Shown one piece after another: positions 12,741 to 42,296 of a stretch of DNA of 64,000 bases. The first letter of the stretch is position 1, and the number at the start of each line of letters is the position of its first letter. The stretch is from an uncultured delta proteobacterium. Its GTDB lineage: Bacteria; Myxococcota_A; Polyangia; Polyangiales; Polyangiaceae. Below the pieces are notes generated by a model. It was not told where the DNA came from, did not search any database, and was given only the letters and a program-made list of their open reading frames with translations. The translations under genes were made by a program, and so were the position numbers. Where the stretch lies: contig CAVQUB010000013.1 of assembly GCA_963716725.1 (NCBI GenBank), positions 384,001 to 448,000 of the forward strand, given 5' to 3'.

Positions 12741-14869
12741 GGATTGACCCCCGGCAGATCCGTGGTGTCGACGTGGGGCTTCTCTTCCGGTGGCTTCGCC
12801 GCCGCGGCATCCGTCGCCTTCTCGGGCGGCTTGTCCGGTGGCTTTTCTGAGCCCGAGGGCGGAGGTGAGGGCGCGGTTTCGCCCTGACCGATGCGTTGTG
12901 CGGCGTGCTGCCCGTAGCTCGAACCCGCGCCAGCCTGCTCCAGCACCCGGCGATAGAGCGTGAGCGCACCCTTGCGGTCTCCCGATTCCCATTTCTGATC
13001 CGCGCGGGCCACCAACGCGGGCAGGTAGCTCGGGTTCTCTTTGAGGACCTTGTCGTACATTTTAGCCGCTGCTTCGGGGTCCTTCTTGGCCTTGGCAACG
13101 TCGGCTAGGCCGGCCATCGCCTCGGTGTTGTTTGGCTCATTGGCGAGCACCTCGTTGTAGAGTTGCTCGGCGCGATCGTAGTTGCCCGCCTTGTAGGCCG
13201 AAGCCGCCTGCTGAAGCTTCGCTCGGAAGTCGTTGGTCCCCTTCGGCACCAAGTCGTCGTCGACGGCTCCCCTGCCGGACGTGTCGAGCAGGGGTAGCGT
13301 CGCCGGATCGACTGCGGCAACTTCGGCGCCTCCGTCCACCCCCGCATCTCCCAGCCCGAGGTGCCGTTTGACGAAGTGCGCGAGGTCTTCGTAGAGGGGG
13401 TGCCCCGCGGCGCGCTCCCGTTGCTTCTCCAACTCGCTCTGCGCTTGCTCTGCCTGTCCGGCGCGAACCAGCGCGTAGATCAGCGCTGAACGCGCCCGGC
13501 CCAAGGCACGCTCGGCTTGTGCTGCGCTCCGCAGGCGATCCACCACGCTGCCCCACACAGGCTGGGACTCCGCGAGATCGAGCGCCGCGAGCACATACGC
13601 ATTTTCGCCCGTGGGGCTCGACGCCAGCGGCTTCACCAGAGCACGCGCTGCTTGGAGATCTCCGGCGAGCCGTAGGATGTCCACACGCGACCGCAAGACG
13701 GCGGGGTTGTCGGAAGCCACCGCCACGGCACGGTCGATGGCTTCTTGGGCCTTGCCGACTCGAGCACCGAGCTGCCGGTGAGTCGCCTGCACGAGTTGCT
13801 TGTCGGCGGGGTCGAGCAAACGCAGCCGCAACCAGAGCATGTCGGCTCGCATGGCTTCGAGTCGGGCCAGAGCCGCGAGAACCGTGGCTTCCTTGTCAGC
13901 GAGGACCGAGGCCTTGTCGAGTTCGCCTCGGGCGCCCTCGAAATCACCTTCTTCGAGCTTGCGCTCGGCCTCGAGCAAGAAGCCCGCGACGCGTGCGTCG
14001 GCGCTCGCTGCCGTCGCGGGTGCGGACTTTCGATACTGCTCGAGATAGCGGCGCCCCACCGTGGCGGCGAGCAGCACCGCAACACCCGCCAAGACCAGGG
14101 CCGCGATCCAGCGCGAGCGGAGGCGTCGGGAGTGCGGCTCCGGGAGGTACAGCGACGCTTGCTCCGACCGATAGCTGCCGGCGCGCACGTCACTGGGAGT
14201 CGGCGAGTAGTCGAGGTCCGGCACCGACTCGCGGATCGTGACCTGCTTCGGGGCGGCGGACCCGGCCACGCGGGCCGGCAGCTGGTTGCGCGGCAAGGTG
14301 GGCGGCTCGGCCTCTTGACTGCTGGCTGGGGCTTCGTCGACCAGCATCGTCCCGCCCGACATCACCCGGCGGTCGGCAGTCGGGACATCAGCGGAGGTCT
14401 GGGTCGGTGCCTCGGTGTCCGCGATGTTAGGTGGCAAGACTGGCGGCGGCGGCAGCGCCGCACCGGGCAGCGGTCCGGCGTAGGAGCCAGCGGCGGGTGG
14501 CGCGACGCCTGCCAAGGTTCGCGCTTGCGCGGGCGCGCGCAGACTCGCCCCGGCGCGCCCGTGGAAGAACGGCTCGAGCTCCGCGATGGCTCCCAGCGGG
14601 CGCGGGGGCTGACCGCCGCGGGCGAGCAGGTCTTCGGGCCCGACTTGGCGCTGAGCGATGCCTCGCTGCATCTCGCGCAGCGAGGTGTAGACCAGCTCAC
14701 GCCCACTCGCGGTGCGCACCACCCAGCGCTCGGGCACCGCCTGCTCGCGGGTCGAGTGCACCTTGAATTGGAAGCCACAATTGGTGCACTTGACCGTGGT
14801 CCCACGATCTGAGACCAGCGCGTCGTCGAACTCGTATTCAGTTCCGCAACGACCGCAGCGGACGTCCAT
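12737..14869 (-). CDS. MJ0042-type Zn-ribbon / GYF-like / TM / TPR protein
   Basis: MDVRCGRCGTEY...VKCTNCGFQFKV; GYF_2-like segment ending LEPFF; Pro-rich linker; single TM; TPR helices at C-terminus. Confidence 0.85.
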   Translation of the reverse strand: MDVRCGRCGTEYEFDDALVSDRGTTVKCTNCGFQFKVHSTREQAVPERWVVRTASGRELVYTSLREMQRGIAQRQVGPEDLLARGGQPPRPLGAIAELEPFFHGRAGASLRAPAQARTLAGVAPPAAGSYAGPLPGAALPPPPVLPPNIADTEAPTQTSADVPTADRRVMSGGTMLVDEAPASSQEAEPPTLPRNQLPARVAGSAAPKQVTIRESVPDLDYSPTPSDVRAGSYRSEQASLYLPEPHSRRLRSRWIAALVLAGVAVLLAATVGRRYLEQYRKSAPATAASADARVAGFLLEAERKLEEGDFEGARGELDKASVLADKEATVLAALARLEAMRADMLWLRLRLLDPADKQLVQATHRQLGARVGKAQEAIDRAVAVASDNPAVLRSRVDILRLAGDLQAARALVKPLASSPTGENAYVLAALDLAESQPVWGSVVDRLRSAAQAERALGRARSALIYALVRAGQAEQAQSELEKQRERAAGHPLYEDLAHFVKRHLGLGDAGVDGGAEVAAVDPATLPLLDTSGRGAVDDDLVPKGTNDFRAKLQQAASAYKAGNYDRAEQLYNEVLANEPNNTEAMAGLADVAKAKKDPEAAAKMYDKVLKENPSYLPALVARADQKWESGDRKGALTLYRRVLEQAGAGSSYGQHAAQRIGQGETAPSPPPSGSEKPPDKPPEKATDAAAAKPPEEKPHVDTTDLPGVNP

Positions 14870-15034
14870 CGAAGTGCCTCGGAAAAACGGCAAAATACTT
14901 AGCATGGGGGCCGGGGTTCGGGGGACTTTCGGACGGCGCACGTGCCGCCGGCTCAACGCCCGCTTGTCTGGCGCACGGCAGTTGCTAGGCTGGGCACACG
15001 ATTCGGCTCGAAAAGCCGTGCGAGAGGCTTGTTC

Positions 15035-15550
15035 ATGAAGCATGCGCTGCTCTTTGGACTGTCGCTGGTGGGCGCAGCGTTGGTCCCCGGCTGCCCCATC
15101 TATCCGGAAGAACGCCTGTTCTGTGAGTCGAGTCTGGACTGCCCGAGCGGCTACGCTTGTGACCCGGGATCGGGGTACTGCGTCATTCCGAGCGGAACCG
15201 GCGGTTCCACCGGGAAGAGCTGCGACGCGCCCAAAGACTGCGGGTTCAACCAGACCTGTAGCTCGAAAGGCGTCTGCAAGACCGGGGACTGCTCGTTCCA
15301 CGGCTGCGTGGGCGGATACACCTGCGCGGTCGATCAGGGCACTTGGACCTGCGTCTCGGGAAGCGGCGGCACGGGCGGGAACGACGCGGGAGCCGACGCC
15401 AGCAACGACGCCGCCGCGGATTCGGCGTCGGGAGGCGCGGGCGGAAGCGCCGGCGCAGGCGGGTCAGCCGGGAGCGGTGGCGCCGGAGGAACTGGCGGGA
15501 GCGCCGGCGCACCGGCGGGCGGCACGTCGGGCGACGCCGCGCCGGACTGA
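15035..15550 (+). CDS. Small Cys-rich lipoprotein with Gly-rich tail
   Basis: Lipobox VPG-C; C..S.DCPSGYAC...C repeats. Confidence 0.8.
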   Translation: MKHALLFGLSLVGAALVPGCPIYPEERLFCESSLDCPSGYACDPGSGYCVIPSGTGGSTGKSCDAPKDCGFNQTCSSKGVCKTGDCSFHGCVGGYTCAVDQGTWTCVSGSGGTGGNDAGADASNDAAADSASGGAGGSAGAGGSAGSGGAGGTGGSAGAPAGGTSGDAAPD

Positions 15551-20800: not shown

Positions 20801-21085
20801 ACCACCGTCAGCAACGACGGCTCGGCACCCGCGAGCAACGTGCTCGTGCGCTACTACGCTGGCGATCCGCAGGCCGGCGGCAAGCCCGTCCACGACGAAG
20901 TGCTCCCCGGACCCATCGCCGCAGGCGGCAACGCGAGCGTCACCGCGACCATGACCAGCTTCCCGAAAGGCGTGAGCGTGCTGATCTACGCCGTGGTTGA
21001 TCCCGACAACGTCATCGCCGAGTGCAACGACGGCAACAACACCGACGACGCGGACTCGAAGGTCACCTGCGGGGGCGTGCAATGA
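17882..21085 (+). CDS. Large Cys-rich lipoprotein with FG-GAP (integrin-like) repeats and two CARDB domains
   Basis: Lipobox LIA-C; DLDGDGKPEIV, DFDGDGFPEIG, DFNGDGAAEVIY, DVDNDGNAEIV; PDL..., ECNETNN and ECNDGNN CARDB ends. Confidence 0.88.
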   Translation: MRSFCLGLGSVTFGLCALIACGGDPEFTSNPATGGATTGGVAGTSGNGSSGASGGSGGLVLDGGGGDAPADADACATISCPNDQHCDPTTGACVPNDCTALGCKATEICITTDGGAYCKDNSCTGDVECPADQYCNGTVCVIDVCAPGDEKCQGQELLVCKPNGSGSDKKVSCGGGSPYFQSKCQDGGTGKADCPCEDDWDCPNFTECVAGTCEGTGVAPTCSLPPEPFKNVLPANEISWGGTFANPKAVGSPFPDSTQVVMTPLVVNLDDDTGDGVIDERDFPEIVFASFCNSEYTSNGVLRAIHGGGKNKGKDFFANCGGTEWHEGDPAFPSCTCASAELDSTAVLAAGDLDGDGKPEIVGLSETDGIIIYNNLGQVLSKSANFSLGGADPAPSLVNVDNAGFAEIVIGRSVFSLEKDANGKLKILDRFEGSLMHGTNGQGPVSCVANLVGDSKQEIVAGSSVYRMATPPAGAKKRADCTGSETGEAKTWCDGKLVVVWDGQTVNGATALPNGNREGFCAVADVLGANQTKAPGPDSPLDGTAEVILVSNGRLLVLNGQTGKLALNLDSAAGTAGGPPNVDDFDGDGFPEIGTAFALAYVVFDLQATAAECPAWTGVTDSNANKPRTPPSATCQKDSDCGNTAKFSCNESTSQCVCLHNSWRRLTEDDSSRVTGSSVFDFNGDGAAEVIYNDECNFRVYDGLNGGEFFKQPSESRTRIEYPVVADVDNDGNAEIVFSTSTESGFCSENKDSQYNAGIEVWGDAKDTWVSARRIWNQHAYHVTNVTEDGHVPSFEPESWKPYNGRLYNTYRSNPRSSGVAPDLVVQAVQVSSPDATCGKLSKKLDITVQIANIGDLRVGPGVVVSFQGTWTAVPLTEALKTAAAAPLTVVIGQNIEPGEVIWLSASYDAANNSPGVLPDKIAVTVDEGNAERECNETNNTLSKDVSAGAQLPDLRVKLGAPTCLPGPTPKVPTTVSNDGSAPASNVLVRYYAGDPQAGGKPVHDEVLPGPIAAGGNASVTATMTSFPKGVSVLIYAVVDPDNVIAECNDGNNTDDADSKVTCGGVQ

Positions 21086-21354
21086 GCGAGGACGATCGAG
21101 AGACGATCCTCGCTCGACGCCGCCTCTTCGTGGTGTCCGCGCTGGCGAGCCTGGCGGTGACCCAGACCAGCTGCGACAAGGTCACCCAGCCCTGCCTGAG
21201 CATCGAGCGCGTTCCCGACGCAGCCGCGCCCATGTCCTGCCTGAAGCCAATCGCGCCTCCCCCAACCGCCAGTTCGAGCGCCGGCGCGGACGCGGGCCGG
21301 GCCATCGAACCCAGGCCGACGGCGTGCCTCGAGGTCCCGGCGCCGGCGAAGTAG
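21082..21354 (+). CDS. Small Tat/lipoprotein-like peptide with three repeated xCL motifs
   Basis: ATG overlaps the upstream TGA (ATGA); ILARRRLFVVSALASLAVTQTS-C; TQPCL, PMSCL, PTACL. Confidence 0.7.
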   Translation: MSEDDRETILARRRLFVVSALASLAVTQTSCDKVTQPCLSIERVPDAAAPMSCLKPIAPPPTASSSAGADAGRAIEPRPTACLEVPAPAK

Positions 21355-21399
21355 CAGCGCCACGCGCCGGCTCCGAACCGAGCGTGATACGCTGCCCTC

Positions 21400-21594
21400 G
21401 TGTCGCGCTCGTCGCCCCACCTCGAAGACGTCCGCGGCGTGCTGCTGGAGCAGTGGGGCTCGATGGATTTCGAGTACGTCGAACGCGTGCTGGCGGCCCG
21501 GATGATCGCGCTCGACGACCCCAGACTTGCGCCGCGCTTCGCCCGCGTCGTGCGGCAAGTGGAGCGACTGCTGGACCAACCCCCACGGCGGTGA
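21400..21594 (+). pseudogene. Probable internally deleted remnant of a nucleotidyltransferase-family (AbiEii/DUF6036-like) gene
   Basis: LEDVRGVLL...DFEYVERVL...ALDDPRLAPRF resembles the helical C-terminus of this family; TACGCT-6nt-GTG start signal. Confidence 0.4.
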
Positions 21595-21637
21595 CGATTG
21601 CACGTCGTCGAAGTGCTATTCTTCCGGCGAGGCAGCC

Positions 21638-22606
21638 ATGGATCTCGATGCGATGCTGGAGAAATGCGGGCGCGAGCAGTGGAGCGTCGGGGACCTCGAC
21701 TGGAGCGGTCGCCCCCGCGACATGAGCCCCGAGGACGAGATCGCCATCGTCCAGTACTTCACCGACATGGCGGGCATCGAGCGTCTAGCCGGGGCGTTGT
21801 TCGAGGCCCAACGCCGGAACGCTGACGATCCACGGCTCGAGGCTATCTTCAAGAGCTTCGTGAAGGACGAGATCCGCCACGCCCACGCCGCGCAGATGCT
21901 GGCGGACTACTACGACGTGCACCACTACCGGCGCTATGTGACGAGCCCCGCGCTGATGCGATTCGCGCCTCACTTCATGAACTTGATCCAGTACTTGCCG
22001 CCCGAGATCGCCAACACCTACATCACGAGCGGCGAGCTGATCCTGGACGTCGCGCTGCTGCGCTCGATCGACGACCACGTCGACGACGAGATGAGCAATC
22101 GCGCCATGGAACTCATCAACCGCGACGAGTCCCGACACATCGCCGTCGATTTCCGCATGGTCGAACACTATGCATCGAGGCAGTACAAACAGAAGCTGCG
22201 ACAGCGCCCACCGGCACCGCTGCCCAAACGGCTCCGGGCTGCCTGGGCCTTCGTCAGCGTCCTCTATTTCGGGGCGCCGTTCTTCCGGGACGTCTTCTTC
22301 GAGCCCATGCACCACATCGACCCGAGCGGGCGGCGGATTCGCGAAGCGTTCAAACGCATCCAGCTCTTGGGCACCAAGCAAGAGCTCCAAGAGCACCCCT
22401 TCACGCGCTTCATGACCGGGCTGCAAGACGTCTACAACGACCGACCGGCGGTGCGCTTGGTGTTCGGTCGACTGATTCGGCGCATCACCGGAGTCGATGA
22501 GAGCCTGATGGCGCGCCTCTACGATCAGAAAGAAGTCGAACGCTCGAATCGCATGAGCTTCGACGAGCTGGCCGAAGAAGCGCTGTCAGCGAAGTTCGCG
22601 AGCTGA
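21638..22606 (+). CDS. Ferritin-like diiron protein (AurF/desaturase-like fold)
   Basis: QWSVGDLDW; E...DEIRH...E...DESRH diiron ligand pattern. Confidence 0.85.
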   Translation: MDLDAMLEKCGREQWSVGDLDWSGRPRDMSPEDEIAIVQYFTDMAGIERLAGALFEAQRRNADDPRLEAIFKSFVKDEIRHAHAAQMLADYYDVHHYRRYVTSPALMRFAPHFMNLIQYLPPEIANTYITSGELILDVALLRSIDDHVDDEMSNRAMELINRDESRHIAVDFRMVEHYASRQYKQKLRQRPPAPLPKRLRAAWAFVSVLYFGAPFFRDVFFEPMHHIDPSGRRIREAFKRIQLLGTKQELQEHPFTRFMTGLQDVYNDRPAVRLVFGRLIRRITGVDESLMARLYDQKEVERSNRMSFDELAEEALSAKFAS

Positions 22607-22615
22607 GCCGCGGCG

Positions 22616-25135
22616 TCAGAAGCAGCTCTTCACCGCCGCCACCACGCGCTCGACGTCGGGCACGCTCAGGCACTCGAGGGCCTTGTTGTAGGCGATGGGA
22701 TGGTCGCCGGCGCCCACGCGGACCGGCGCAGCCGCCAGGAGCCCGTGGGCCCGGCCTGCGACCCGCGCCACGACCTCGGCCCCGAACCCACCTCGCAGGG
22801 GGCTCTCCTCCACCGTGACCAAGCGCCGGGTCTTCGCCACCGACTCGATGATCGTCTCGGTGTCGAGCGGCGCGACCGTGCGCGGGTCGACGACCTCGAC
22901 GTCAATGCCCTCTCGTTCGAGCTCCTGCGCGGCCTCGAGAGCGACCTGCACCATGTACGAGAGCGCCACGATGGTCACGTCCCTGCCCGCGCGCACCACT
23001 CGCGCCACGCCGAGCGGAGCCACGTCGTCACCCGACGGGACCGGTCCTTCGGTCAGGTAGAGCAGCTTGTGCTCGAAGAACAGCACCGGGTTGTCGGAGC
23101 GGATCGCCGCCTTCAGCAAGGCGCGGCAGTCTCGCACGGTGCCCGGCGCCACGATGATCAGGCCGGGGATATTCATGAACCAGGACTCGAGGGACTGCGA
23201 GTGCTGCGCCGCCATGCCGAGCCCGGCGCCGCCGGGCGTGCGCACGACCATCGGGATCGAGTACTGCCCGCCGGACATGTAGCGGAGCTTGGCGGCCTGG
23301 TTCACCAAGGGGTCGGCGCAGACGGTGAGGAAGTCCGAGAACAGGATCTCGGCCACCGGACGCAGGCCGTTCATGGCCGCGCCCACCGCACCACCCACGA
23401 TAGCGTTCTCGCTGATGGGAGTGTCGCGCACGCGCCGCTTGCCGAACTCGTCGACCAAGCCGGTGGTCACGGCGAGGTAGCCGCCAAGGGTGACGTCCTC
23501 ACCGAGCAGCACCACCCTCGGATCGCGCTGCATCTCTTCGCGGAGGGCAAGGTTGATGGCCCCGGAGGCGGTCATGGTCAGGGTCTCGCCCAGGCTCGCG
23601 GGCTGGACGCGCTTCGGCTCCGGCGAGAACACATGGGTGACTAGTGCCGAGGGCCCGGGCTCGGGCGAGCGGCGCGCGAAGTCCATGGCGGCATCGACGG
23701 TGGAACGCGCCTCGTCGGCCAAGGTCTTCGAGCCCTCGTCGTCGAGCGTTCCTTCGCCCAAGAGGGCGCGACGGTGGCGAACGCAGGGATCCTTCTGCTT
23801 CCACTCCTCGAGCTCGGTGGCGCTTCGATAGCTCTGCGCGTCACCTTCCATGTGGCCGCGCCAACGATACGTGACGCACTCGAGCAAGGCCGGGCCCTCG
23901 CCCGCGCGCGCCCGCGCCACCAGCTCGATCGCGGCGCGGTGCACCGCGTCGACGTCGTTTCCGTCCACGGTCACGCCAGGCATTCCGTAGGAGGCAGCTC
24001 GGTCCGAGAGCTGCGAGATGTTGGTGGAGCCGGCTCGCGGCGTGAACTCCCCGTAGCCGTTGTTCTCGATCACGAACAATACCGGCAGCTTCCACACGGC
24101 GGCGAGGTTCAACGCCTCGTGGAACATGCCTTGATTGGTGGCGCCATCGCCCATGAAGGCCACCGCGACCAAGTCGCGCTCCTGATGCGAAAACGCCAGC
24201 GCCGCTCCCATGGCCATCAGCGGGGAGCTGCCCACGATACCGTTGGCGCCGATGGCACCGACGCTGGCATCGGTCACGTGCATGCTGCCGCCCTTGCCCG
24301 CACAGAGCCCGGTCTCCTTGCCGAAAATCTCGGCCATCATGCGATCCGGCGGCGCGCCCTTGGCGAGCATGTGACCATGCCCGCGGTGAGTGGTGGCGAT
24401 GACGTCGTCGCGCCGCAGCGCGAAACACACGCCCACGGCCACCGCCTCTTGGCCCGTGCTCAGGTGGATCGCGGCCGTTGGCAAGCCGCCGGCCTGCCAC
24501 TCGCCCGCGAGTCGCTCTTCGAGCTCGCGGATCAACAGCATGCGCCGCAGCATCTCGATGCGCAGCTCACGCGGTGCTGTCGGGAGCTCGGCGTGGGCCG
24601 TGGCAGGCACGACTGGCTCGGTCCCGGTCGGAGGACGGGTGTCCGTCGAACCGCCCGCGGCGGTGGTTCCGCGCTTGCGAAAGCGAGCCAGCAGCCGCCG
24701 CCAGTCGATCCGGCGCTTCTTCACCGCTCCCGCGTCGCGCTCCTCGAGCCCCAGCTCCCGCAGCACCTCGGGGTAGATGCTGAAGGCGGGTCGAATGGCG
24801 GGCAGCAGCTTGAGCGCCCCGGTCACGTCACCGCGCGCCCGCACGCGTCCGGTGGCGATGGCGCGTACGGGGTTCAGCTGGCCGCTCCAGAACTCGTGGG
24901 CGGTGTCCGACGACTGCACCATCTCGACGTCGGCCGGGCCGCTGTCGCCGGTCAAGAAGCGCGCGGGTCGATGCTCGAGATCGAAGGTCAGTACCGATCC
25001 GAGGTCGGGGTATCGAAAGCGGACGACGAGTTCGGTGCTGGTGAGGGGATCGGCGACGGCGGGCGACGCCATCAGGCGCTCGAACAGCTTGGCCATCACG
25101 CGCTCGAACTCGGCTCGGTCGGCGAATTTGGGCAT
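22616..25135 (-). CDS. SCP2 lipid-binding domain fused to ThDP-dependent dehydrogenase E1 alpha and beta (AcoA/AcoB, PdhA/PdhB-like)
   Basis: N-terminal AHEFWSGQLNPVRAIATGRVRARGD (SCP2); GQEA, THRGHGH, GKGGSMH, GDGA..ENN (E1a); TPISE, QHSQ, FFEHK (E1b). Confidence 0.9.
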   Translation of the reverse strand: MPKFADRAEFERVMAKLFERLMASPAVADPLTSTELVVRFRYPDLGSVLTFDLEHRPARFLTGDSGPADVEMVQSSDTAHEFWSGQLNPVRAIATGRVRARGDVTGALKLLPAIRPAFSIYPEVLRELGLEERDAGAVKKRRIDWRRLLARFRKRGTTAAGGSTDTRPPTGTEPVVPATAHAELPTAPRELRIEMLRRMLLIRELEERLAGEWQAGGLPTAAIHLSTGQEAVAVGVCFALRRDDVIATTHRGHGHMLAKGAPPDRMMAEIFGKETGLCAGKGGSMHVTDASVGAIGANGIVGSSPLMAMGAALAFSHQERDLVAVAFMGDGATNQGMFHEALNLAAVWKLPVLFVIENNGYGEFTPRAGSTNISQLSDRAASYGMPGVTVDGNDVDAVHRAAIELVARARAGEGPALLECVTYRWRGHMEGDAQSYRSATELEEWKQKDPCVRHRRALLGEGTLDDEGSKTLADEARSTVDAAMDFARRSPEPGPSALVTHVFSPEPKRVQPASLGETLTMTASGAINLALREEMQRDPRVVLLGEDVTLGGYLAVTTGLVDEFGKRRVRDTPISENAIVGGAVGAAMNGLRPVAEILFSDFLTVCADPLVNQAAKLRYMSGGQYSIPMVVRTPGGAGLGMAAQHSQSLESWFMNIPGLIIVAPGTVRDCRALLKAAIRSDNPVLFFEHKLLYLTEGPVPSGDDVAPLGVARVVRAGRDVTIVALSYMVQVALEAAQELEREGIDVEVVDPRTVAPLDTETIIESVAKTRRLVTVEESPLRGGFGAEVVARVAGRAHGLLAAAPVRVGAGDHPIAYNKALECLSVPDVERVVAAVKSCF

Positions 25136-25138
25136 GGC

Positions 25139-26215
25139 TCACCCCGCAACGGATCGATGCGAGGCCAAGAGTGGCAGGCGCCGGCGCTGCCCGAGCTTCA
25201 CCCACGACTTCACCGGCTCGAGGTTGCCCTCGCACACCTCCGAGATCTCGACGCGATGAATCGATACGCATTTGTGACAGCTCTCGCCGGTCTTGCCCGC
25301 CAGCTCACGCAAGCGCGGGTGGCGCAGCACCTGCTCCAGACTCTGATCCTTCAAATTGGCGATCGGTCGGGTCCCCCAGTGCATGCAGTCGACCACGTCG
25401 CCGTTGGCCTCGATGGGCAGCATGAACTTGGGCCAGTGGCAGCTGTACTCCGGCGGGCCCTTCTGCATCATGCTCATGTGCGTGTTCGAGTTGAGAATGG
25501 GATAACCGCGCTGCTTGAGATCCTTCAAGACGCCGAACGCAGTGGAGAGTTCGGCCTGTGAGGGTGCAAAGCTCGAGATGTCAACGTCGCTCTCTGCGGT
25601 GGCCGCTTCTTCGCGCAGAGCGTTGAAGACACCGAGCACTCCCAGATCCGCCATCAGCTCGGCCATGCGCCGGAGTGTGGCTGTGTCGGCGTTGGCTTTC
25701 TGAAGCGTGCAGACGAATAGGATGGTCTTCTTCGGATCGCGCGCCCGAAGTGCCCGGGTGCCCGCCACGATCTCGCCGAACAGGCCGCGGATCCCGCGAA
25801 TTTCGTCGTGTTTGACCGAAGGGTGGTCGAGCGAGATGCTGACCTTGTCGATGTTATCGGCGACGGCGTCGAGCTTCTTCCGGAGCAAGAAGCCATTGGT
25901 CACCATGTTGCTGATCAAGCCCACGTCCCGAGCGTGACGGACGATCTCCTCGAAGTCGCGATGCAAGAGCGGCTCGCCTCCCCAGATCGAAAGGCCGATG
26001 AATCCGGCGCGGCGCGCGTCGGTGTAGAGCTGCTTGATGGCCGGCGTCGAGAGCTGATCCCGCGGATCGTAGAAGTCCGGATTCCAAGCGCAGAAGCCGC
26101 AGCGTGCGTTGCAGCGTGCGGTGAGGGCATGCACCAAGTAGATCGGGTGTTGGACTCCCAGACGGGCTCCGGCGAGCCGGCGGGTGAGTTCGAAGATATT
26201 CGCTCTTGCGTTCAT
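25139..26215 (-). CDS. Radical SAM enzyme with Cys-containing Twitch/SPASM-like C-terminal extension
   Basis: CNARCGFC, GGEPLL, MVTNG, ISLD; C-terminal C...GDVVDC...CHKC. Confidence 0.92.
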   Translation of the reverse strand: MNARANIFELTRRLAGARLGVQHPIYLVHALTARCNARCGFCAWNPDFYDPRDQLSTPAIKQLYTDARRAGFIGLSIWGGEPLLHRDFEEIVRHARDVGLISNMVTNGFLLRKKLDAVADNIDKVSISLDHPSVKHDEIRGIRGLFGEIVAGTRALRARDPKKTILFVCTLQKANADTATLRRMAELMADLGVLGVFNALREEAATAESDVDISSFAPSQAELSTAFGVLKDLKQRGYPILNSNTHMSMMQKGPPEYSCHWPKFMLPIEANGDVVDCMHWGTRPIANLKDQSLEQVLRHPRLRELAGKTGESCHKCVSIHRVEISEVCEGNLEPVKSWVKLGQRRRLPLLASHRSVAG

Positions 26216-26817
26216 GACGTGGACCTTTCGAGAAGCGTGGTGAGTTCGGCGACGTGGCGCCGACGAAGCGCCAGGCGCTCGGGCGACAGCGGGTCCTCTC
26301 CCAAGAATGCCCCGAGCACAGGCTCGTAGATGAAGTAGCCGGAGATCGCTCCGAACACGCTGATGGCGAGGTCGCGCGCGACGTCACGATCGCCGAAGTG
26401 CTGTTCGAGGAGCTCGCGCAGCGGGCCAACGATGGCGGCGGCGCTGTCGCGCACGACGTCTCCACGATCGATGAGCTGCCGGAGCAGGAGCCGCTGCAGA
26501 TCTCGTTCTTCGACCAAGAAGTCGAAGTGAGCGAGAGCGAGGCGGACCGGCAACCCGGCTCGGTCGCCTTCTGCAACCGCGGCAGAGAGCCGCTTCAGAA
26601 GGCGGCTCTGGGCATCGGCCACGACGGTGTCGTAGAGCGCCTGCTTGCCGCCAAAGTAGTAGTTGATCATCGCTGCGGTGGTGGCTGCGCGCTCGGCGAT
26701 GGTCCGCACCGAGGCGGCGCCGAAGCCGCTCTCCGCAAACTCGCTCCGCGCCGCCGCCACGATGCGCTCGCGCACGCCATCGCTCGCCGACCCAGGAATC
26801 ATGCTCGAATCAGCCAT
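26212..26817 (-). CDS. TetR/AcrR family transcriptional regulator
   Basis: RERIVAAARSEFAESGFGAASVRTIAERA...MINYYFGGKQALY. Confidence 0.95.
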   Translation of the reverse strand: MADSSMIPGSASDGVRERIVAAARSEFAESGFGAASVRTIAERAATTAAMINYYFGGKQALYDTVVADAQSRLLKRLSAAVAEGDRAGLPVRLALAHFDFLVEERDLQRLLLRQLIDRGDVVRDSAAAIVGPLRELLEQHFGDRDVARDLAISVFGAISGYFIYEPVLGAFLGEDPLSPERLALRRRHVAELTTLLERSTS

Positions 26818-26844
26818 TAAACACTCGTTCTAAACACGTGTTTA
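26818..26844. promoter_or_regulatory. Putative TetR operator: perfect 14-bp palindrome TAAACACGTGTTTA plus an adjacent TAAACAC half-site
   Basis: Palindrome at 26831-26844; half-site at 26818-26824; on the minus strand TTGACT-17nt-TAAACA overlaps it. Confidence 0.7.
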
Positions 26845-26886
26845 ACAACCGGCGATGGCAAAGTCAAGCGCCGGACGCGCCGGGCA

Positions 26887-28041
26887 TCATTCGACGGTGA
26901 TCAATGGCGCTGCGAACCCGCCGCCGGCGAAGTCCGCGTCGCGGATCAGCTCGGGCGCGGCGCCCGATCCGCCCAAGTCGAAGGCCTCGATGCTCTGGGT
27001 CGTCGCGGCCAAGACGCGCCCCGCCGGCGACAGCGCGAGCGAGCGGCAGAACCATGGTGACGACTCCACCGGACCGGAGAGCGGAACCATCGATGGTTCC
27101 GCGTCGAGGCGGAGCGGCAGGAGCACCAGGGCGCCGGTCGAAGATCCCCGGGACAAGAGCAGGACGAGCGCGTCCCGATCCGCGGCGACCTCCACGCACT
27201 CGATGCTGCCCTTCGCGCCCGGCACCGTCACGCTGCGGAAGCTCGTCGGCACCGCAGGATCGACCCGGGAGATCTCGGCGATCTCGATCTGCGACCCGTC
27301 CTCGTGCTTCCTCACCAAGTACGCTTCGTCGCGATCCTCAGCGCCCGCGAGACGCGAGCTCGGACGACCCGGGGCTGGGATGGAGTGGAAGTCGATCTGC
27401 CACTGCGAGTCGAAGCGCGCCACGAGCAGTGAGTCGAAGGTCTCGCCTGCGTCGAAGCCGGTACTGCTCAAGGACAAGAGCCGTCCCGGAACGCTCGCCG
27501 ATACGAGGCTCGAGGGGCGATTGATCGCTTGGCTGCCCGGCACCAGGCGCAGAGCGGAGTCGAGCAACGACCAGGTCACCGCCATGTCCTCGGTCAGGAC
27601 CAAGACGTAGGGCGGGAAGGGAAAGAGACGCGCGCCGGGTCCAAGCTCATCGCTCTCGCCCACCAGAGAGAGCTGCCCGTCGACGATGTCGAAGGCTCGA
27701 ACCCTGGAGGTCTCCAGGTCGTTGGGCGAGGTCGCCGCGAGGAGCCGCGAGCCATCGAGCACCAGATCGCCGACCACCTCGCCGACGACGGTCGTCGACA
27801 GCACGTGGCCCGTCGCCGGGTCGAAGGCCGCGACTTGGCTCGGTCCACTGCGAGCGTAGGCGCGCTTCTTCAAACTCGGAGCGACGGAGCTCACAGGAGG
27901 GCCGATGGCGGGGTCCGCAGGGATCGTCGCCGGACCAGGACCCGCGTCGTGTTCTTCAGCGACCGCTCGGAAGGGCTCACCCGCGCAGGCGGTGAGCACG
28001 AGCACACAGAGACTCGCGATGGACTTTCGGATCGGTGGCAT
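26887..28041 (-). CDS. Hypothetical lipoprotein, possible beta-propeller
   Basis: Lipobox LTA-C; beta-rich repeats; no catalytic motif recognised. Confidence 0.65.
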   Translation of the reverse strand: MPPIRKSIASLCVLVLTACAGEPFRAVAEEHDAGPGPATIPADPAIGPPVSSVAPSLKKRAYARSGPSQVAAFDPATGHVLSTTVVGEVVGDLVLDGSRLLAATSPNDLETSRVRAFDIVDGQLSLVGESDELGPGARLFPFPPYVLVLTEDMAVTWSLLDSALRLVPGSQAINRPSSLVSASVPGRLLSLSSTGFDAGETFDSLLVARFDSQWQIDFHSIPAPGRPSSRLAGAEDRDEAYLVRKHEDGSQIEIAEISRVDPAVPTSFRSVTVPGAKGSIECVEVAADRDALVLLLSRGSSTGALVLLPLRLDAEPSMVPLSGPVESSPWFCRSLALSPAGRVLAATTQSIEAFDLGGSGAAPELIRDADFAGGGFAAPLITVE

Positions 28042-28123
28042 GACCCCGCCTCGGCCCGCGCCGGCGGAGAGTTTCCGAAAAAGTCTTGCTCACGCATTCA
28101 GCACTTGGGCGCAGGTGCGCTGC

Positions 28124-28615
28124 TCAGTCCAACTCGCGCGGGCGCCACACCTGAACGAGCTCCGCTCCCGCTTCGCGGCCGACCTCCGCCCAATCATCGA
28201 CCGCGAGACTGAAGCGCGCGATGGCCGCCGTGGGCATCGCCTCACGCATGGCAGCAAGGTCGCTCACCAGCTCTTCGGTGCCGGGGTTGTGGCCGACCAC
28301 CAAGAGACAGCCGACTTCGTCGGAAACACCGGCGATCTCCTCGAGGATCTGCCCGGGGGACGCCAGGTAGAGCTCACGTCGGAGTCGCAGCTCGGGCTTC
28401 CAGCCAAATGCTTCGGCGACCGCCGACGCGGTGGTCCGTGCGCGCAGCGCGGTGGAGCTCAGGATCAGATCCGGAACCACGGCGTGCTGGACCAAGATCG
28501 CGGCCATCTGCGGCGCGCTGCGTTCACCGCGGGTGTTGAGCGGGCGATCGTGATCCGAGACGCCGTCGTCGTCCCAGCTCGACTTGGCGTGTCGCATCAA
28601 GAGCAGCGTCTTCAT
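28124..28615 (-). CDS. sixA: Phosphohistidine phosphatase SixA
   Basis: LLLMRHAKSSWDD, DHDRPLN.RG, SSTALRARTTA, LVVGHNP, MPTA. Confidence 0.92.
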   Translation of the reverse strand: MKTLLLMRHAKSSWDDDGVSDHDRPLNTRGERSAPQMAAILVQHAVVPDLILSSTALRARTTASAVAEAFGWKPELRLRRELYLASPGQILEEIAGVSDEVGCLLVVGHNPGTEELVSDLAAMREAMPTAAIARFSLAVDDWAEVGREAGAELVQVWRPRELD

Positions 28616-35677: not shown

Positions 35678-36826
35678 TCAGCCGTTGGCAGCGTCTGCCG
35701 GCGCGCCGCCGGTGCCCGTGCCGCCGGTGCCTGCGTCCGTGCCGCCGGTGCCTGCGTCTGTGCCGCCGGTGCCTGCGTCCGTGCCGCCGTCGTCGGGGCA
35801 GATTGCGATCCCAGCGCCCGCGTCAACGTTAGCGGTCGGCGAACAGGCGCCCACCCGGTTAGCCTGGGTAGCGTTTGCGTTCGGCACGCAGAGGTAGCCA
35901 GGCGCGCAATGAGCGTTGCAATCGCACAACGCCTGGCATGCGCCGATGTCGCCGGTCGTCGGAGCGGCGCCACCCAAATCGAATATCAGTGAGCAGATAC
36001 CGTCAGACTTCACCCCCACCGCGGTGAACCCACAGCCGGGAGCTCCGAGCACGCACCAGTTGCTGCAAAATCGCTCCTGGGACGGGCTGATCCCGATGCA
36101 GAGACCCTTGCATTGTCCGGGCGGCGTGGCCTGGCAGGATTCTCCAAGGTCCTTGCCAGCTGCCGCCTTCGTCGTGCACAGGCCGGTATCGAGGTTGCAT
36201 GTGTGCGCAGCAGGGCAATCGCTATCCGAGCCGCAGCGTGGATCGCACATGCTGAAGGTGTCGTGGCACATGCCGTCAGCAGCGCACATTTCCCCGGCCG
36301 GACAATCATCCTTGTTCGCGCCAGTACACGCCGCTTTGGGCGTTGACTCGAGAAGCAAGTTGCAGCCGACGTCGGGGCGGCCCTGGCACTTCTTCTGTGA
36401 TTCTTCACCAATCGTACAACCCGCGAAGCACCATCCGCGGTTGCATTCCCCTTTCGGATCGTGGGCTTTGCAGTCCTCGGACACGGCGCAGGTTGCGCTG
36501 CAGTACCCGTGGGCCGGACCCTCGCCGTCAAGCTTGCCGGAGTCAGGGAGAATGCACGTGAGGCCCCCGCCGCACTCGCCATCGTTGACGCACGCTTTGG
36601 CCAGCTTGGTCGTGGCCGTGGTTCCGCCGGTTCCGCCGGTTCCGCCGGTCGCCCCGGAGCCACCGCTGCCGCCGGTCGCTCCAAAAGCACCGCTGCCGTC
36701 GGGGAGCCCGCCGCCAGTGCCGCCGCCACCGCCGCCCTCGCTGTCGTCACTGCTACACGCGAAGGAGGAACCGCTCAACGACGCTGCGATCAAACCCACA
36801 CCCAACCAAGGCGATACTCTCTTCAT
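35678..36826 (-). CDS. Cys-rich repeat lipoprotein
   Basis: Lipobox SFA-C; Gly/Thr linker; many C..D.DC repeats; C-terminal GTDAGTG repeats. Confidence 0.82.
   Translation of the reverse strand: MKRVSPWLGVGLIAASLSGSSFACSSDDSEGGGGGGTGGGLPDGSGAFGATGGSGGSGATGGTGGTGGTTATTKLAKACVNDGECGGGLTCILPDSGKLDGEGPAHGYCSATCAVSEDCKAHDPKGECNRGWCFAGCTIGEESQKKCQGRPDVGCNLLLESTPKAACTGANKDDCPAGEMCAADGMCHDTFSMCDPRCGSDSDCPAAHTCNLDTGLCTTKAAAGKDLGESCQATPPGQCKGLCIGISPSQERFCSNWCVLGAPGCGFTAVGVKSDGICSLIFDLGGAAPTTGDIGACQALCDCNAHCAPGYLCVPNANATQANRVGACSPTANVDAGAGIAICPDDGGTDAGTGGTDAGTGGTDAGTGGTGTGGAPADAANG
35706..35789. repeat. 21-bp tandem repeat (about 3 copies) encoding GTDAGTG
   Basis: GTGCCGCCGGTGCCTGCGTC(C/T) units. Confidence 0.8.
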
Positions 36827-36917
36827 GTCTTTCCCAAGCCTGCAACAACCCGCTCAGCCACCGGGCATCTAGCACGGTCCGCCGGACTCACAAGTCCTGG
36901 GCGCGCGCGAGGCACTC

Positions 36918-36959
36918 AAAAAAAGCCAACCCGATCCGACGTGAGTCAGACCGGGTTGG
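36918..36959 (-). terminator. Rho-independent terminator downstream of the metalloprotease gene
   Basis: Minus strand CCAACCCGGTCTGAC-TCAC-GTCGGATCGGGTTGG followed by a T-run. Confidence 0.85.
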
Positions 36960-36996
36960 ACTACGTTCGAACGGCGAGGGATCTGCCCGCCTGTTT

Positions 36997-41313: not shown

Positions 41314-41417
41314 GCCGTTCTCCTTAAACAAGTTGCTTTGTCATCCCGATGCCGCCGGACGGTGCGCCAAATACGCGCAATCTCCCGAGGACAGAATCCG
41401 AGCCGGCACCACCTTGG

Positions 41418-41433
41418 GCAAGAGCCGAGCCAG
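41418..41433 (-). promoter_or_regulatory. Putative sigma54 promoter for the metzincin gene
   Basis: Minus strand CTGGCTCGGCTCTTGC = TGGC..-N-TTGC with exact GG-N10-GC spacing; AT-rich tract upstream. Confidence 0.6.
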
Positions 41434-41654
41434 AACATCGCAAGGCTGTTTTCTTGCGGTTTTATGTTCTAACTCCCCCCAGGCGGGGGGGCGGCGCGGA
41501 ACCTAACCGTTAGGGGACTAACTCGCAACGAGATTGTCGCACACTCATGACGCGACGCGGCACGCTTTCGAGCGTGCGCGCGGCGTGATGTACCCGCCGT
41601 GGGGGCGGAGGTGGAACGCTCTGTCAGCGGGTAGGCTGGAGGCGCAGCGAAACG

Positions 41655-42296
41655 ATGACGACGCTACAGCAAGGCCCGAACGATGAGGTCGTCGCACTCA
41701 AGCGCGAGCTGTCGCTTCACCTCAAGCTGCTTGGGGGCTTCGTCGCCGTGTTCTGGCTCGTGCACCTCGTCAGCGCCATCGGCTTTGGCGGCCGCCTGGT
41801 CGTGTACGGCATCCGGCCCCGAACGCTTTCTGGACTTTGGGGCCTGCTCACCATGCCCTTCCTCCACGGCAACCTGCCGCACCTGATCGGCAACACCGTG
41901 CCCTTCGTCGTGCTCGGCTGGCTGGTGCTGGCACGGTCCGTGGCGCGCTTCGTCCTAGTGACGCTGCTCGGCATGGGGCTCGGGGGCTTGGGCGTCTGGC
42001 TCGTGGGTGCGTCCAACTCGGTGCACGTCGGCGCGAGCGGGCTGGTGTTCACCTATTTCGGTCACACCTTGCTCGCCGGTTGGTTCGAGCGCCGCGTCGG
42101 CAGCATCGTGCTCAGCGTGCTGGTGTTCTTCCTGTACGGCGCGTTGATCTTGGGCGTGCTGCCGGGCCAGTGCGGCGTCTCGTGGGAAGGTCACTTGTTC
42201 GGCTTCGCCGCCGGCGCAGCATCGGCGTGGCTCACCAGCGGGCGCGCGCCGGTCGGGCATAGGGCGAGGGTCCGCGCCGCGCAATCAGCTCGTTGA
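41655..42296 (+). CDS. Rhomboid family intramembrane serine protease
   Basis: PFLHGNLPHLIGN; GASG catalytic Ser; SWEGHLFG catalytic His. Confidence 0.92.
   Translation: MTTLQQGPNDEVVALKRELSLHLKLLGGFVAVFWLVHLVSAIGFGGRLVVYGIRPRTLSGLWGLLTMPFLHGNLPHLIGNTVPFVVLGWLVLARSVARFVLVTLLGMGLGGLGVWLVGASNSVHVGASGLVFTYFGHTLLAGWFERRVGSIVLSVLVFFLYGALILGVLPGQCGVSWEGHLFGFAAGAASAWLTSGRAPVGHRARVRAAQSAR

What the first reader, a model, noticed from the sequence alone, without database searches (positions are those of the whole stretch)
22616..26844. TetR-controlled operon: radical SAM enzyme plus SCP2-E1alpha-E1beta fusion, a candidate undescribed lipid pathway
Seen: three minus-strand genes tightly coupled (ATGA overlap tetR/rSAM, 3-bp gap rSAM/E1) behind a perfect palindrome. 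Known: SCP2 domains bind sterols and acyl lipids, TetR regulators often sense lipids, radical SAM enzymes do C-H and C-C chemistry, and ThDP E1 enzymes cleave or form C-C bonds next to carbonyls. Inference: a dedicated pathway in which the radical SAM enzyme makes a carbonyl-bearing lipid and the SCP2-guided ThDP enzyme cleaves or ligates it. I know no described pathway with this gene set.
Basis: partly seen in the sequence, partly recalled or inferred. Interest (0 to 1): 0.8.

Follow-up and report, generated by a model that had tools for sequence, protein, structure and literature searches.

The report
Repressor-controlled radical SAM and thiamine enzyme operon
A small gene cluster from an uncultured soil or groundwater myxobacterium pairs a self-regulating repressor with two unusual enzymes of unknown job, one carrying a built-in lipid-binding domain; it recurs in related uncultured bacteria and probably processes a greasy small molecule.

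Summary
Three minus-strand genes sit behind a perfect 14-bp palindrome at 26831-26844: TetR 26212-26817, a radical SAM enzyme 25139-26215, and an SCP2-E1alpha-E1beta fusion 22616-25135. TetR and the radical SAM gene overlap by ATGA. A 3-nt gap separates the radical SAM gene from E1.

The palindrome is a conserved operator, TAAAC-N4-GTTTA. It lies upstream of TetR in 27 of 27 orthologous loci, against 0 of 1775 control windows.

The conserved core is TetR plus the radical SAM enzyme. Of 29 loci with full flanks, TetR is adjacent in 21 and the SCP2-E1 fusion in only 11. Where present, the fusion is tightly coupled and occurs in several deep branches.

All 47 orthologous loci come from uncultured genomes, mostly Polyangia. 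None is from Actinomycetota.

The radical SAM enzyme is a twitch-type enzyme with four invariant auxiliary cysteines and no characterised close relative. The E1 keeps all catalytic motifs. No E2 or E3 lies in the window or beside any fusion.

Function remains unknown and I found no description in print. A ligand-induced pathway acting on a hydrophobic molecule is plausible. The evidence is the SCP2 domain, a second barrel protein in sister loci, and a PsrA-like operator. None of this shows it.

The parts
26831..26844 (.). Operator: perfect palindrome TAAACACGTGTTTA
   Evidence: It is unique in the window, with 0.04 expected by chance. TAAAC-N4-GTTTA is conserved upstream of TetR in 27 of 27 orthologous loci against 0 of 1775 control windows.
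26818..26824 (-). Extra operator half-site GTGTTTA, abutting the TetR start codon
   Evidence: Read from the sequence. A second (A)AC-N3-TGTTTA(A/G) half-site follows the palindrome in many orthologous loci.
26212..26817 (-). TetR-family repressor (201 aa), first gene of the operon
   Evidence: Pfam TetR_N 1.9e-12. The weak best NCBIfam hits are RefZ and PsrA, over the HTH only. Orthologues lie directly upstream of the rSAM gene in 30 of 47 loci.
25139..26215 (-). Twitch-type radical SAM enzyme (358 aa)
   Evidence: Pfam Radical_SAM and SPASM. C35-x3-C39-x2-C42 plus four further cysteines (259, 277, 313, 316) are invariant in 30 sequences. AF2 model pLDDT 86.5. The nearest structures are SkfB and BlsE at about 20% identity.
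24746..25135 (-). SCP2 domain (residues 1-130) of the fusion protein
   Evidence: Pfam SCP2 28.4 bits against cut-off 21.3. The nearest Atlas clusters are stand-alone SCP2 proteins, 27 of 30. The domain is present in 119 of 131 family members and has invariant positions of its own.
24566..24745 (-). Basic, low-complexity linker (residues 131-190)
   Evidence: Seen in the translation. No Pfam match. Poorly conserved in alignment A4.
23606..24565 (-). E1 alpha module (ThDP/PP domain, residues 191-510)
   Evidence: Pfam E1_dh 1.4e-82. Aligns to human PDH E1alpha at 1.8e-51, with the GDG...NN motif and the YRxxGH histidine kept. Both are invariant in the family.
22616..23605 (-). E1 beta module (Pyr and C-terminal domains, residues 511-839, plus stop)
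   Evidence: Pfam Transket_pyr and Transketolase_C. Best PDB match is PDH E1beta 1ik6 at 8e-82. DTPISE and AAQHSQ are invariant.

Best explanation
This is a self-repressed, ligand-inducible operon that recurs as a module in uncultured Polyangia.

Shown:
- A TetR repressor is encoded as the first gene. Its conserved operator, TAAAC-N4-GTTTA, lies over the region just upstream of its own start codon.
- The TetR gene overlaps the gene of a twitch-type radical SAM enzyme by 4 nt, which suggests translational coupling.
- In this lineage that gene is followed after 3 nt by an SCP2-tethered ThDP enzyme of the heterotetrameric E1 (alpha+beta) type.
- The E1 keeps every catalytic motif. It has no E2 or E3 nearby.
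- TetR + rSAM is the invariant core. The SCP2-E1 is an old but dispensable accessory.

Inferred:
- A hydrophobic small molecule releases the repressor.
- The rSAM enzyme carries out a two-electron radical oxidation on that molecule, such as C-H or alcohol to carbonyl, or a cross-link. Its single four-cysteine auxiliary cluster would act as the electron sink.
- Where the fusion is present, the SCP2 domain holds the greasy product at the E1 active site. The E1 then performs ThDP-dependent cleavage or decarboxylation next to the carbonyl.
- The acyl or aldehyde fragment goes to a housekeeping lipoyl-E2 or is released.
For: Operon and regulation:
- Junctions as described.
- The operator is unique in the window and conserved in 27 of 27 loci against 0 of 1775 controls.
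- ORF coordinates show the 4-nt TetR/rSAM stop-start overlap in 21 of 27 loci.
- The rSAM/E1 gap is at most 6 nt, or the genes overlap, in 9 of 12 loci.

Module:
- 47 orthologous loci at 47-78% rSAM identity.
- TetR is adjacent in 30 and the E1 fusion in 15.
- E1-positive loci fall in the window's clade (7 of 7, support 98), three other clades and the deep branch L034.

rSAM:
- Seven invariant cysteines, 3 + 4.
- A twitch domain binds one auxiliary cluster. A four-cysteine cluster goes with two-electron oxidation in BtrN, whereas MoaA has three cysteines and an open iron site (PMC9012708, passages read).

E1:
- ThDP motif, HRGHGH, H428, E576 and H645 are invariant in 19 sequences.
- No E2 or E3 among the 45 window ORFs.
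- The neighbours scanned at E1-positive loci gave no E2/E3 match.
- The nearest annotated split homologues, at 48-51% identity, sit in E1a-E1b-E2-lpdA operons.

Hydrophobic ligand:
- SCP2 domain.
- An unrelated roughly 150-aa protein ('c1') lies beside TetR-rSAM in 16 of 47 loci. It has a confident all-beta-plus-helix model that weakly resembles calycin barrels.
- The operator core AAAC-N4-GTTT equals the box of PsrA, a long-chain-fatty-acid-sensing TetR (PMC13104628, passages read).
- PsrA is the second-best NCBIfam hit of the HTH.
Against: - No substrate, product or ligand is known, and no close homologue of the rSAM enzyme is characterised. The best are 20% identity to structures and at most 28% to annotated plasmid genes.
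- In 18 of 29 fully flanked loci the rSAM gene has no E1 within 8 kb. No other conserved partner replaces it. The two enzymes therefore need not act in sequence.
- The SCP2-E1 family is large: 119 of the 131 hits carry the domain. I could not test whether its members are always rSAM-linked.
- BtrN itself is not among the sequence or fold neighbours listed. 'Dehydrogenase' rests only on the cysteine count.
- The c1 resemblance to lipocalins is weak: TM at most 0.41, E above 0.01. Its only significant neighbour is an uncharacterised protein, 4mve.
- The PsrA match covers the HTH only, at 40.8 bits against a cut-off of 300.
- The strict sigma-70 scan found no promoter in 22300-27100.
Confidence: 0.35

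Rival explanations
1. There are two functions on one transcript. TetR + rSAM is a self-contained unit: a single radical enzyme that modifies or detoxifies the TetR ligand. The SCP2-E1 fusion is a separate ThDP dehydrogenase E1 of the acetoin or 2-oxoacid type. It works with an E2/E3 encoded elsewhere and merely shares the promoter in some lineages.
For: - TetR-rSAM occurs without E1 in 18 of 29 fully flanked loci.
- The E1 catalytic core is 45-51% identical to E1 pairs in ordinary E1-E2-E3 operons and shares their THRGHGH motif.
- It passes the NCBIfam 'PDH E1 beta' subfamily cut-off, 340.4 against 321.
- The histidines and glutamate conserved in PDH-type E1 are invariant.
Against: - Tight rSAM/E1 junctions in 9 of 12 loci.
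- The linkage appears in at least four separate clades, including a deep branch where the order is E1-rSAM-TetR-c1.
- E1 and rSAM identities to the window fall together across loci.
- No E2 or E3 beside any fusion.
- The alpha and beta equivalog cut-offs are missed: 326 against 394, and 349 against 454.
Confidence: 0.25
2. The rSAM enzyme is a peptide or protein maturase of the RiPP kind, like SkfB, SuiB or PqqE.
For: - The best fold matches are SkfB, SuiB and PqqE.
- Many NCBIfam partial hits are to RiPP maturases.
Against: - There is no room for a precursor gene. The junctions are a 4-nt overlap, a 3-nt gap and a 9-nt gap to the convergent gene, and the 69-nt leader holds the operator.
- The protein is only 358 aa and its rSAM core starts near residue 20, so it has no N-terminal recognition domain.
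- It has only four C-terminal cysteines rather than the seven or so of a full SPASM domain.
- No peptidase or exporter is conserved nearby.
- One clade (L016) has a PqqD-like gene about 3 kb upstream, but it is not conserved.
Confidence: 0.08
3. The module makes or trims an isoprenoid cofactor such as a quinone. The SCP2 domain would act as in the ubiquinone-pathway carriers UbiJ and UbiT (recalled, not tested here).
For: Only two points: the SCP2 domain, and the fact that rSAM enzymes take part in quinone pathways (recalled).
Against: - No prenyltransferase, methyltransferase or other quinone gene is conserved nearby.
- A TetR-inducible, patchily distributed module looks more like an accessory or catabolic function than core cofactor synthesis.
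Confidence: 0.07
4. The rSAM enzyme is an antiviral viperin-like enzyme.
For: - PADLOC pVip models match residues 29-133 at 5.6e-17.
- Viperins are among the fold neighbours.
Against: - The match covers only the generic rSAM core.
- NCBIfam viperin scores 54.9 against a cut-off of 180.
- As I recall, viperins lack the cysteine-rich C-terminal domain seen here.
- No kinase or other defence gene is nearby.
Confidence: 0.02

Closest known systems
Heterotetramer-type ThDP E1 (alpha+beta) of pyruvate/acetoin-type 2-oxoacid dehydrogenase complexes
   Same: - Same three Pfam domains.
- 45-51% identity to plasmid-borne E1a/E1b pairs.
- Best PDB matches are PDH E1beta 1ik6 and human PDH E1alpha 1ni4.
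- ThDP motif and catalytic His/Glu are conserved.
   Different: - Alpha and beta are fused into one chain.
- An N-terminal SCP2 domain and a basic linker are added.
- No E2 or E3 lies adjacent, whereas the homologues examined sit in E1a-E1b-E2-lpdA operons.
- Equivalog cut-offs are missed.
- It is coupled to a radical SAM gene.
Twitch-domain radical SAM enzymes (BtrN, MoaA; BlsE as nearest solved structure)
   Same: - CX3CX2C core plus a short C-terminal iron-sulfur domain.
- Four invariant C-terminal cysteines, as for the BtrN auxiliary cluster (PMC9012708).
- BlsE is the best full-length fold match, TM 0.66/0.72, and the best PDB sequence hit at 7e-14.
   Different: - Only about 20% identity.
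- BtrN is not among the listed neighbours.
- The substrate is unknown.
- The genomic partners (TetR, SCP2-E1, c1) are unlike those of any of these enzymes.
PsrA-type TetR repressors (long-chain fatty-acid sensors of Pseudomonas)
   Same: - Autorepression through a palindrome close to its own start codon.
- The operator core AAAC-N4-GTTT is identical in sequence and spacing (PMC13104628).
- The HTH hits the PsrA model at 2e-10.
   Different: - The whole-protein score is far below the PsrA cut-off, 40.8 against 300.
- The ligand domain is not recognisably related.
- The flanking bases are T/A instead of G/C.
- The regulator is co-transcribed with its target enzymes.
QncN/QncL-type E1-like enzymes of natural-product pathways (recalled from memory, not tested here)
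   Same: A fused E1 alpha-beta ThDP enzyme recruited outside central metabolism to handle a C-C bond next to a carbonyl.
   Different: As recalled, those systems carry a dedicated lipoyl E2-like partner and a carrier protein. None is present here, and they have no SCP2 domain or rSAM partner.

Membership tests
TetR family repressor | N-terminal TetR-type HTH | tested here: met
   Pfam TetR_N 47.2 bits against cut-off 24.
TetR family repressor | Palindromic operator at its own promoter | tested here: met
   By conservation only. TAAAC-N4-GTTTA is upstream of TetR in 27 of 27 loci against 0 of 1775 controls. Binding was not assayed.
PsrA (equivalog) | Whole-protein score above the NCBIfam cut-off | tested here: not met
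   40.8 bits against 300, over residues 15-81 only.
Radical SAM superfamily | CX3CX2C cluster motif and Radical_SAM domain | tested here: met
   C35/C39/C42 are invariant. Pfam 65 bits against 29.5.
Full SPASM subfamily (two auxiliary clusters) | About seven C-terminal cysteines for two clusters | tested here: not met
   Only C259, C277, C313 and C316 are invariant beyond the core motif. The Pfam SPASM model itself scores 33.1 against 21.5.
Twitch subfamily (one auxiliary cluster) | Truncated SPASM domain with ligands for a single cluster | tested here: met
   Four invariant cysteines. Definition taken from PMC9012708. Cluster content was not measured.
RiPP maturase systems | Adjacent precursor peptide and/or recognition (PqqD-like) domain | tested here: not met
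   There is no intergenic room. The 358-aa protein has no N-terminal extension.
Prokaryotic viperin | NCBIfam equivalog cut-off | tested here: not met
   54.9 bits against 180. The PADLOC hit covers only residues 29-133.
SCP2 domain | Pfam PF02036 above the gathering score | tested here: met
   28.4 bits against 21.3. 27 of 30 nearest Atlas clusters are SCP2. Lipid binding was not tested.
PDH complex E1 (alpha/beta type) | ThDP-binding GDG-X26-NN motif and catalytic His/Glu | tested here: met
   Alignment to 1ni4_A. Invariant in 19 family members. The residue roles are recalled, not taken from a call.
PDH complex E1 (alpha/beta type) | NCBIfam equivalog scores for E1alpha and E1beta | tested here: not met
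   TIGR03182 scores 326.2 against 393.85, and NF008854 scores 348.6 against 454. Only the subfamily model NF006667 passes, 340.4 against 321.
PDH complex E1 (alpha/beta type) | Cognate E2 and E3 genes in the operon | tested here: not met
   None among the 45 ORFs of the window, and none among the neighbours scanned at E1-positive loci. The genome outside the window was not seen.
Acetoin dehydrogenase E1 (AcoA/AcoB) | Activity on alpha-hydroxyketones; acoC/acoL partners | not testable with these tools
   No Aco-specific model appeared in the libraries searched. The shared THRGHGH motif is only a lead.

The most novel reading that the evidence does not exclude
The module is an oxygen-independent route for breaking a C-C bond inside a hydrophobic, oxygenated lipid such as a vicinal diol, acyloin or 2-hydroxy/2-oxo lipid. 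A twitch-type radical SAM dehydrogenase would install the carbonyl. An E2-independent, SCP2-guided ThDP lyase derived from a dehydrogenase E1 would then cut next to it. A PsrA-like lipid-sensing repressor would switch on the whole pathway. That would be a new enzyme pairing, and a new job for an E1 scaffold, in uncultured Polyangia.
Probability: 0.15. Interest if true: 0.8.

Novelty: new variant of a known kind. Interest (0 to 1): 0.55.

Why it matters
Each part belongs to a well-known superfamily. The combination has no described counterpart in the papers I could search. It consists of a self-regulated TetR, a highly conserved twitch radical SAM enzyme, and a dehydrogenase E1 that has lost its E2/E3 neighbours and gained a lipid-carrier domain. 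It is confined to lineages with no cultured member among the loci recovered.

It offers three things:
- A defined operator and repressor pair for ligand fishing.
- A radical SAM subfamily of several hundred sequences with no assigned reaction.
- A test case for whether E1 scaffolds can work on lipids without a lipoyl partner.

If the hydrophobic-substrate reading holds, it would add an oxygen-independent lipid-modifying or lipid-cleaving route. That bears on how myxobacteria of anoxic or low-oxygen sediments and groundwater handle lipids.

Tried and rejected
- Complex prediction of the rSAM enzyme with the SCP2 domain gave no verdict, score 0.01. It counts neither for nor against binding.
- The sigma-70 and terminator scan of 22300-27100 found no sites. 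By eye, TTGACT (26862-26867), 17 nt, then TAAACA overlaps the operator. This fails the tool's criteria and is unverified.
- The Rfam scan of 21000-28500 at E up to 0.1 found nothing, so no riboswitch.
- PADLOC gave only generic viperin-core hits.
- Pfam of 132 neighbouring ORFs from the 47 loci showed no conserved partner beyond TetR, E1 and c1. My greedy ORF choice picked some antisense ORFs, which I partly rechecked.
- The next-nearest rSAM family (L048-L077, at most 36% identity) sits in conserved histidine-utilisation synteny in Gemmatimonadota and gave no clue.
- The rSAM enzyme against plasmids reached at most 28% identity, to MftC and PqqE.
- Extra rSAM genes near L028 (MoaA-like) and L007 are not conserved.
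- The upstream genes (384 aa, 539 aa) and the downstream convergent gene are shared only with L001/L002 and are not part of the module.
- Literature searches for SCP2 + E1 + radical SAM, and for TetR + radical SAM + Myxococcota, found nothing relevant in the search listings and abstracts. A 2026 review of lipid-modifying rSAM enzymes contains no mention of SCP2, thiamin or myxobacteria by term search (PMC13459092).
- A first tree run gave no answer. I reran it with FastTree.
  - Any search of metagenome contigs or viral contigs, which were closed.
  - bioRxiv supplements.

Full report
**What is in the sequence**

On the minus strand of the window lie three ORFs: 26212-26817 (201 aa), 25139-26215 (358 aa) and 22616-25135 (839 aa). 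Codon-position GC, with GC3 of 0.80-0.88, supports these frames. It argues against the overlapping plus-strand ORF 26855-27610. The real upstream neighbour is a same-strand 384-aa gene at 26887-28041.

The first gene's stop and the second gene's start share ATGA. The second and third genes are 3 nt apart.

Pfam assigns the following:

| Gene | Domains |
|---|---|
| First | TetR_N |
| Second | Radical_SAM + SPASM |
| Third | SCP2 (residues 20-110, 28.4 bits against cut-off 21.3), E1_dh (197-495), Transket_pyr (521-693), Transketolase_C (709-831) |

The perfect palindrome TAAACACGTGTTTA sits at 26831-26844, 13 nt before the TetR start codon. A further half-site, GTGTTTA, abuts the ATG. It is the only match in the 64 kb even with one mismatch allowed; shuffles give 0.04.

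**Is it found elsewhere?**

The radical SAM protein has many close relatives. The 120 listed are all at least 64% identical, and their only names are generic.

A scan of one genome per species with an alignment of these proteins returned 379 relatives. I was given the best 80, as 77 loci. L001-L047 are orthologues at 47-78% identity. From L048 on, identity drops to 36% or less.

All 47 are metagenome-assembled genomes. Most are labelled Polyangiaceae, Polyangiales, Myxococcales or Sandaracinaceae. A few are labelled Hydrogenedentes, Schekmanbacteria, Nitrospirales, Usitatibacter or Enterobacteriaceae. None is labelled Actinomycetota, and none is a cultured strain.

tblastn of the window's proteins against these loci, supplemented by Pfam, gave:

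| Partner next to the rSAM gene | All 47 loci | 29 loci with at least 3 kb on both sides |
|---|---|---|
| TetR | 30 | 21 |
| SCP2-E1 fusion | 15 | 11 |
| c1 | 16 | 10 |

The stable unit is therefore TetR + rSAM. The fusion is frequent but dispensable.

Where the fusion is present, it is tightly joined. In 9 of 12 loci the rSAM stop and E1 start overlap or lie at most 6 nt apart. ORF coordinates show the TetR/rSAM 4-nt overlap in 21 of 27 loci.

I built a FastTree of 43 orthologues and 2 outgroup rows. Five partial rows (L037, L043, L044, L045, L047) were left out. On this tree the window groups with L001/L002 and lies in a clade of seven rows that all have the fusion (support 98). Fusion-bearing loci also occur in three other clades and in the deep branch L034, where the order is E1-rSAM-TetR-c1. 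At least 3 to 6 gains or losses are needed. The linkage looks old and repeatedly lost or separated, not a one-off accident.

**The operator**

Twenty-seven loci have a TetR that I could anchor. In all 27, the 200 nt around its start contain TAAAC-N4-GTTTA, exact in 20 and with one mismatch in 7. None of 1775 control windows of 200 nt from the same loci has a match with at most one mismatch. A second half-site often follows. This is a clear phylogenetic footprint in DNA of about 67% GC.

The core AAAC-N4-GTTT, with the same spacing, is the box of PsrA. PsrA is a TetR repressor that represses its own gene and senses long-chain fatty acids (PMC13104628, passages read). PsrA is also the second-best NCBIfam hit of this TetR. 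That hit covers the HTH only and falls far below the cut-off, 40.8 bits against 300. I treat this as a lead on DNA recognition, not on the ligand.

**The radical SAM enzyme**

In 30 orthologues, seven cysteines are invariant: C35, C39 and C42, plus C259, C277, C313 and C316. That fits one auxiliary cluster with four cysteine ligands, which is a twitch rather than a full SPASM domain.

According to the review I read in passages (PMC9012708):
- The twitch domain binds one cluster.
- The BtrN cluster has four cysteine ligands and the enzyme performs a two-electron oxidation.
- MoaA has three cysteines and an open iron site that binds its substrate.

The AlphaFold model is confident, with pLDDT 86.5 and pTM 0.86. 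Its nearest solved structures are SkfB, BlsE (TM 0.66/0.72), SuiB, PqqE, DesII, viperins and MoaA, at 13-20% identity. By sequence, BlsE is best at 7e-14.

No NCBIfam model comes near its cut-off. Annotated plasmid genes reach at most 28% identity. This is an uncharacterised subfamily. A two-electron oxidation is suggested only by the cysteine count.

**The E1 fusion**

The catalytic part is closest to PDH-type E1beta (1ik6, 8e-82) and human PDH E1alpha (1.8e-51). In 19 family members the following are invariant:
- the GDG...NN ThDP motif
- the HRGHGH stretch
- H428 in YRxxGH
- E576 in DTPISE
- H645 in AAQHSQ

The roles of these residues are recalled from the PDH literature, not taken from a call. 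The enzyme should be catalytically competent.

It passes only a subfamily model of PDH E1beta and fails the alpha and beta equivalog cut-offs.

The nearest annotated relatives are split E1a/E1b pairs at 48-51% identity. The two I inspected lie in E1a-E1b-E2-lpdA operons next to sugar regulators, and they share the THRGHGH motif. By contrast, there is no E2, E3 or lipoyl protein among the 45 ORFs of this window. None appears among the neighbours scanned at fusion-bearing loci.

The N-terminal domain is a real, conserved part of the family:
- 119 of 131 retrieved relatives carry it. The 12 without are 558-740 aa and look like short gene calls.
- It has its own invariant positions.
- Its nearest Atlas clusters are stand-alone SCP2 proteins of about 140 aa, 27 of 30.

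**A second accessory protein**

In 16 of 47 loci a protein of about 150 aa ('c1') lies beside the pair. It is often divergent from TetR, so that the operator lies between them. In some loci it follows the rSAM or E1 gene, and in others it stands in place of TetR.

It has no Pfam match and only 92 representatives among 1.84 billion proteins. It is rarely fused, once each to an SDR and a FIST domain.

Its model is very confident, pLDDT 95. The only significant structural neighbour is the uncharacterised Tcur_1030 (4mve, E 1.3e-4, TM about 0.5). Weak similarities to eight-stranded barrels such as lipocalins follow, at TM 0.41 or less. It is absent from this window.

Two unrelated small-ligand-carrier-like folds recurring around the same rSAM gene is a modest argument for a hydrophobic substrate.

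**Interpretation**

What is shown:
- a conserved, self-regulated operon architecture
- an invariant TetR-rSAM core
- an old, tight but dispensable link to an E2-less SCP2-E1 fusion
- restriction to uncultured lineages

What is inferred:
- a hydrophobic inducer and substrate
- oxidation by the rSAM enzyme
- ThDP-dependent cleavage or decarboxylation by the fusion

I put about 0.9 on the operon and regulation statement. I put about 0.5 on a hydrophobic small-molecule substrate. I put about 0.15-0.2 on the specific order 'rSAM makes a carbonyl, E1 cuts next to it'.

The main rival is that the two enzymes are functionally separate and the E1 uses an E2 encoded elsewhere. A RiPP role is unlikely. 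There is no room for a precursor, no recognition domain, and only four auxiliary cysteines.

**Novelty and limits**

I found no description of this gene set in the searches made, nor in a 2026 review of lipid-modifying rSAM enzymes searched by term. The library lacks most subscription journals.

I also could not search metagenome or viral contig collections, which were closed. Whether 'E1-less' genomes carry the fusion elsewhere remains open.

Other attempts that gave no evidence are listed under Tried and rejected.

I rate the finding as a new variant of known kinds of parts, with moderate to good interest.

Noticed in passing
L003, L005-L008, L012, L013, L015, L022, L024, L029, L034, L036, L038, L045, L046 (e.g. 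L024:228-686, minus strand): A conserved protein of about 150 aa ('c1') has no Pfam family and carries the motifs SRWRDT, LYDEVKPL and GDLFFFAL. It lies next to TetR-rSAM in 16 of 47 loci. Its model is confident, and its only significant structural neighbour is the uncharacterised 4mve. It is absent from this window.
   Followed up: yes
L045:3-1430: An E2 catalytic domain (2-oxoacid_dh) and an E3-like Pyr_redox_2 gene lie just upstream of c1-rSAM in one MAG. This is probably a housekeeping operon next door. It is the only E2/E3 seen near any rSAM locus.
   Followed up: partly
L025, L026, L027, L041: Loci labelled Hydrogenedentes or Nitrospirales form one well-supported clade nested inside the Myxococcota rSAM tree. 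They lack TetR, E1 and c1. L025, L026 and L041 share a convergent downstream ORF cluster; the L025 copy is an iron alcohol dehydrogenase. This suggests horizontal transfer of the rSAM gene alone.
   Followed up: partly
L004 (MAG labelled Candidatus Schekmanbacteria): Its rSAM and SCP2-E1 genes nest within the Polyangiaceae clade that holds the window. A methyltransferase gene replaces TetR upstream. This points to transfer or mis-binning.
   Followed up: no
window 36000-42000: GC drops to about 0.62, against 0.67-0.69 elsewhere. The stretch holds a 1444-aa ORF (36997-41331, minus strand) with only a weak Met-zincin match. It may be acquired DNA.
   Followed up: no
window 21527-22606 (+): The convergent downstream gene ends 9 nt from the E1 stop. 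It has a weak, sub-threshold AurF-like diiron match (E 0.004). A counterpart occurs only in L001/L002, so it was not counted as part of the module.
   Followed up: partly
L018:3116-5053: An acetolactate-synthase-type ThDP enzyme (TPP_enzyme_N/M/C) lies about 2.5 kb upstream of TetR-rSAM-SCP2-E1 in one locus. It is not seen in the others.
   Followed up: no
window 12737-15301 (-): A long ORF in the GC-richest stretch of the window (0.71) did not pass my codon-position filter and was not annotated.
   Followed up: no
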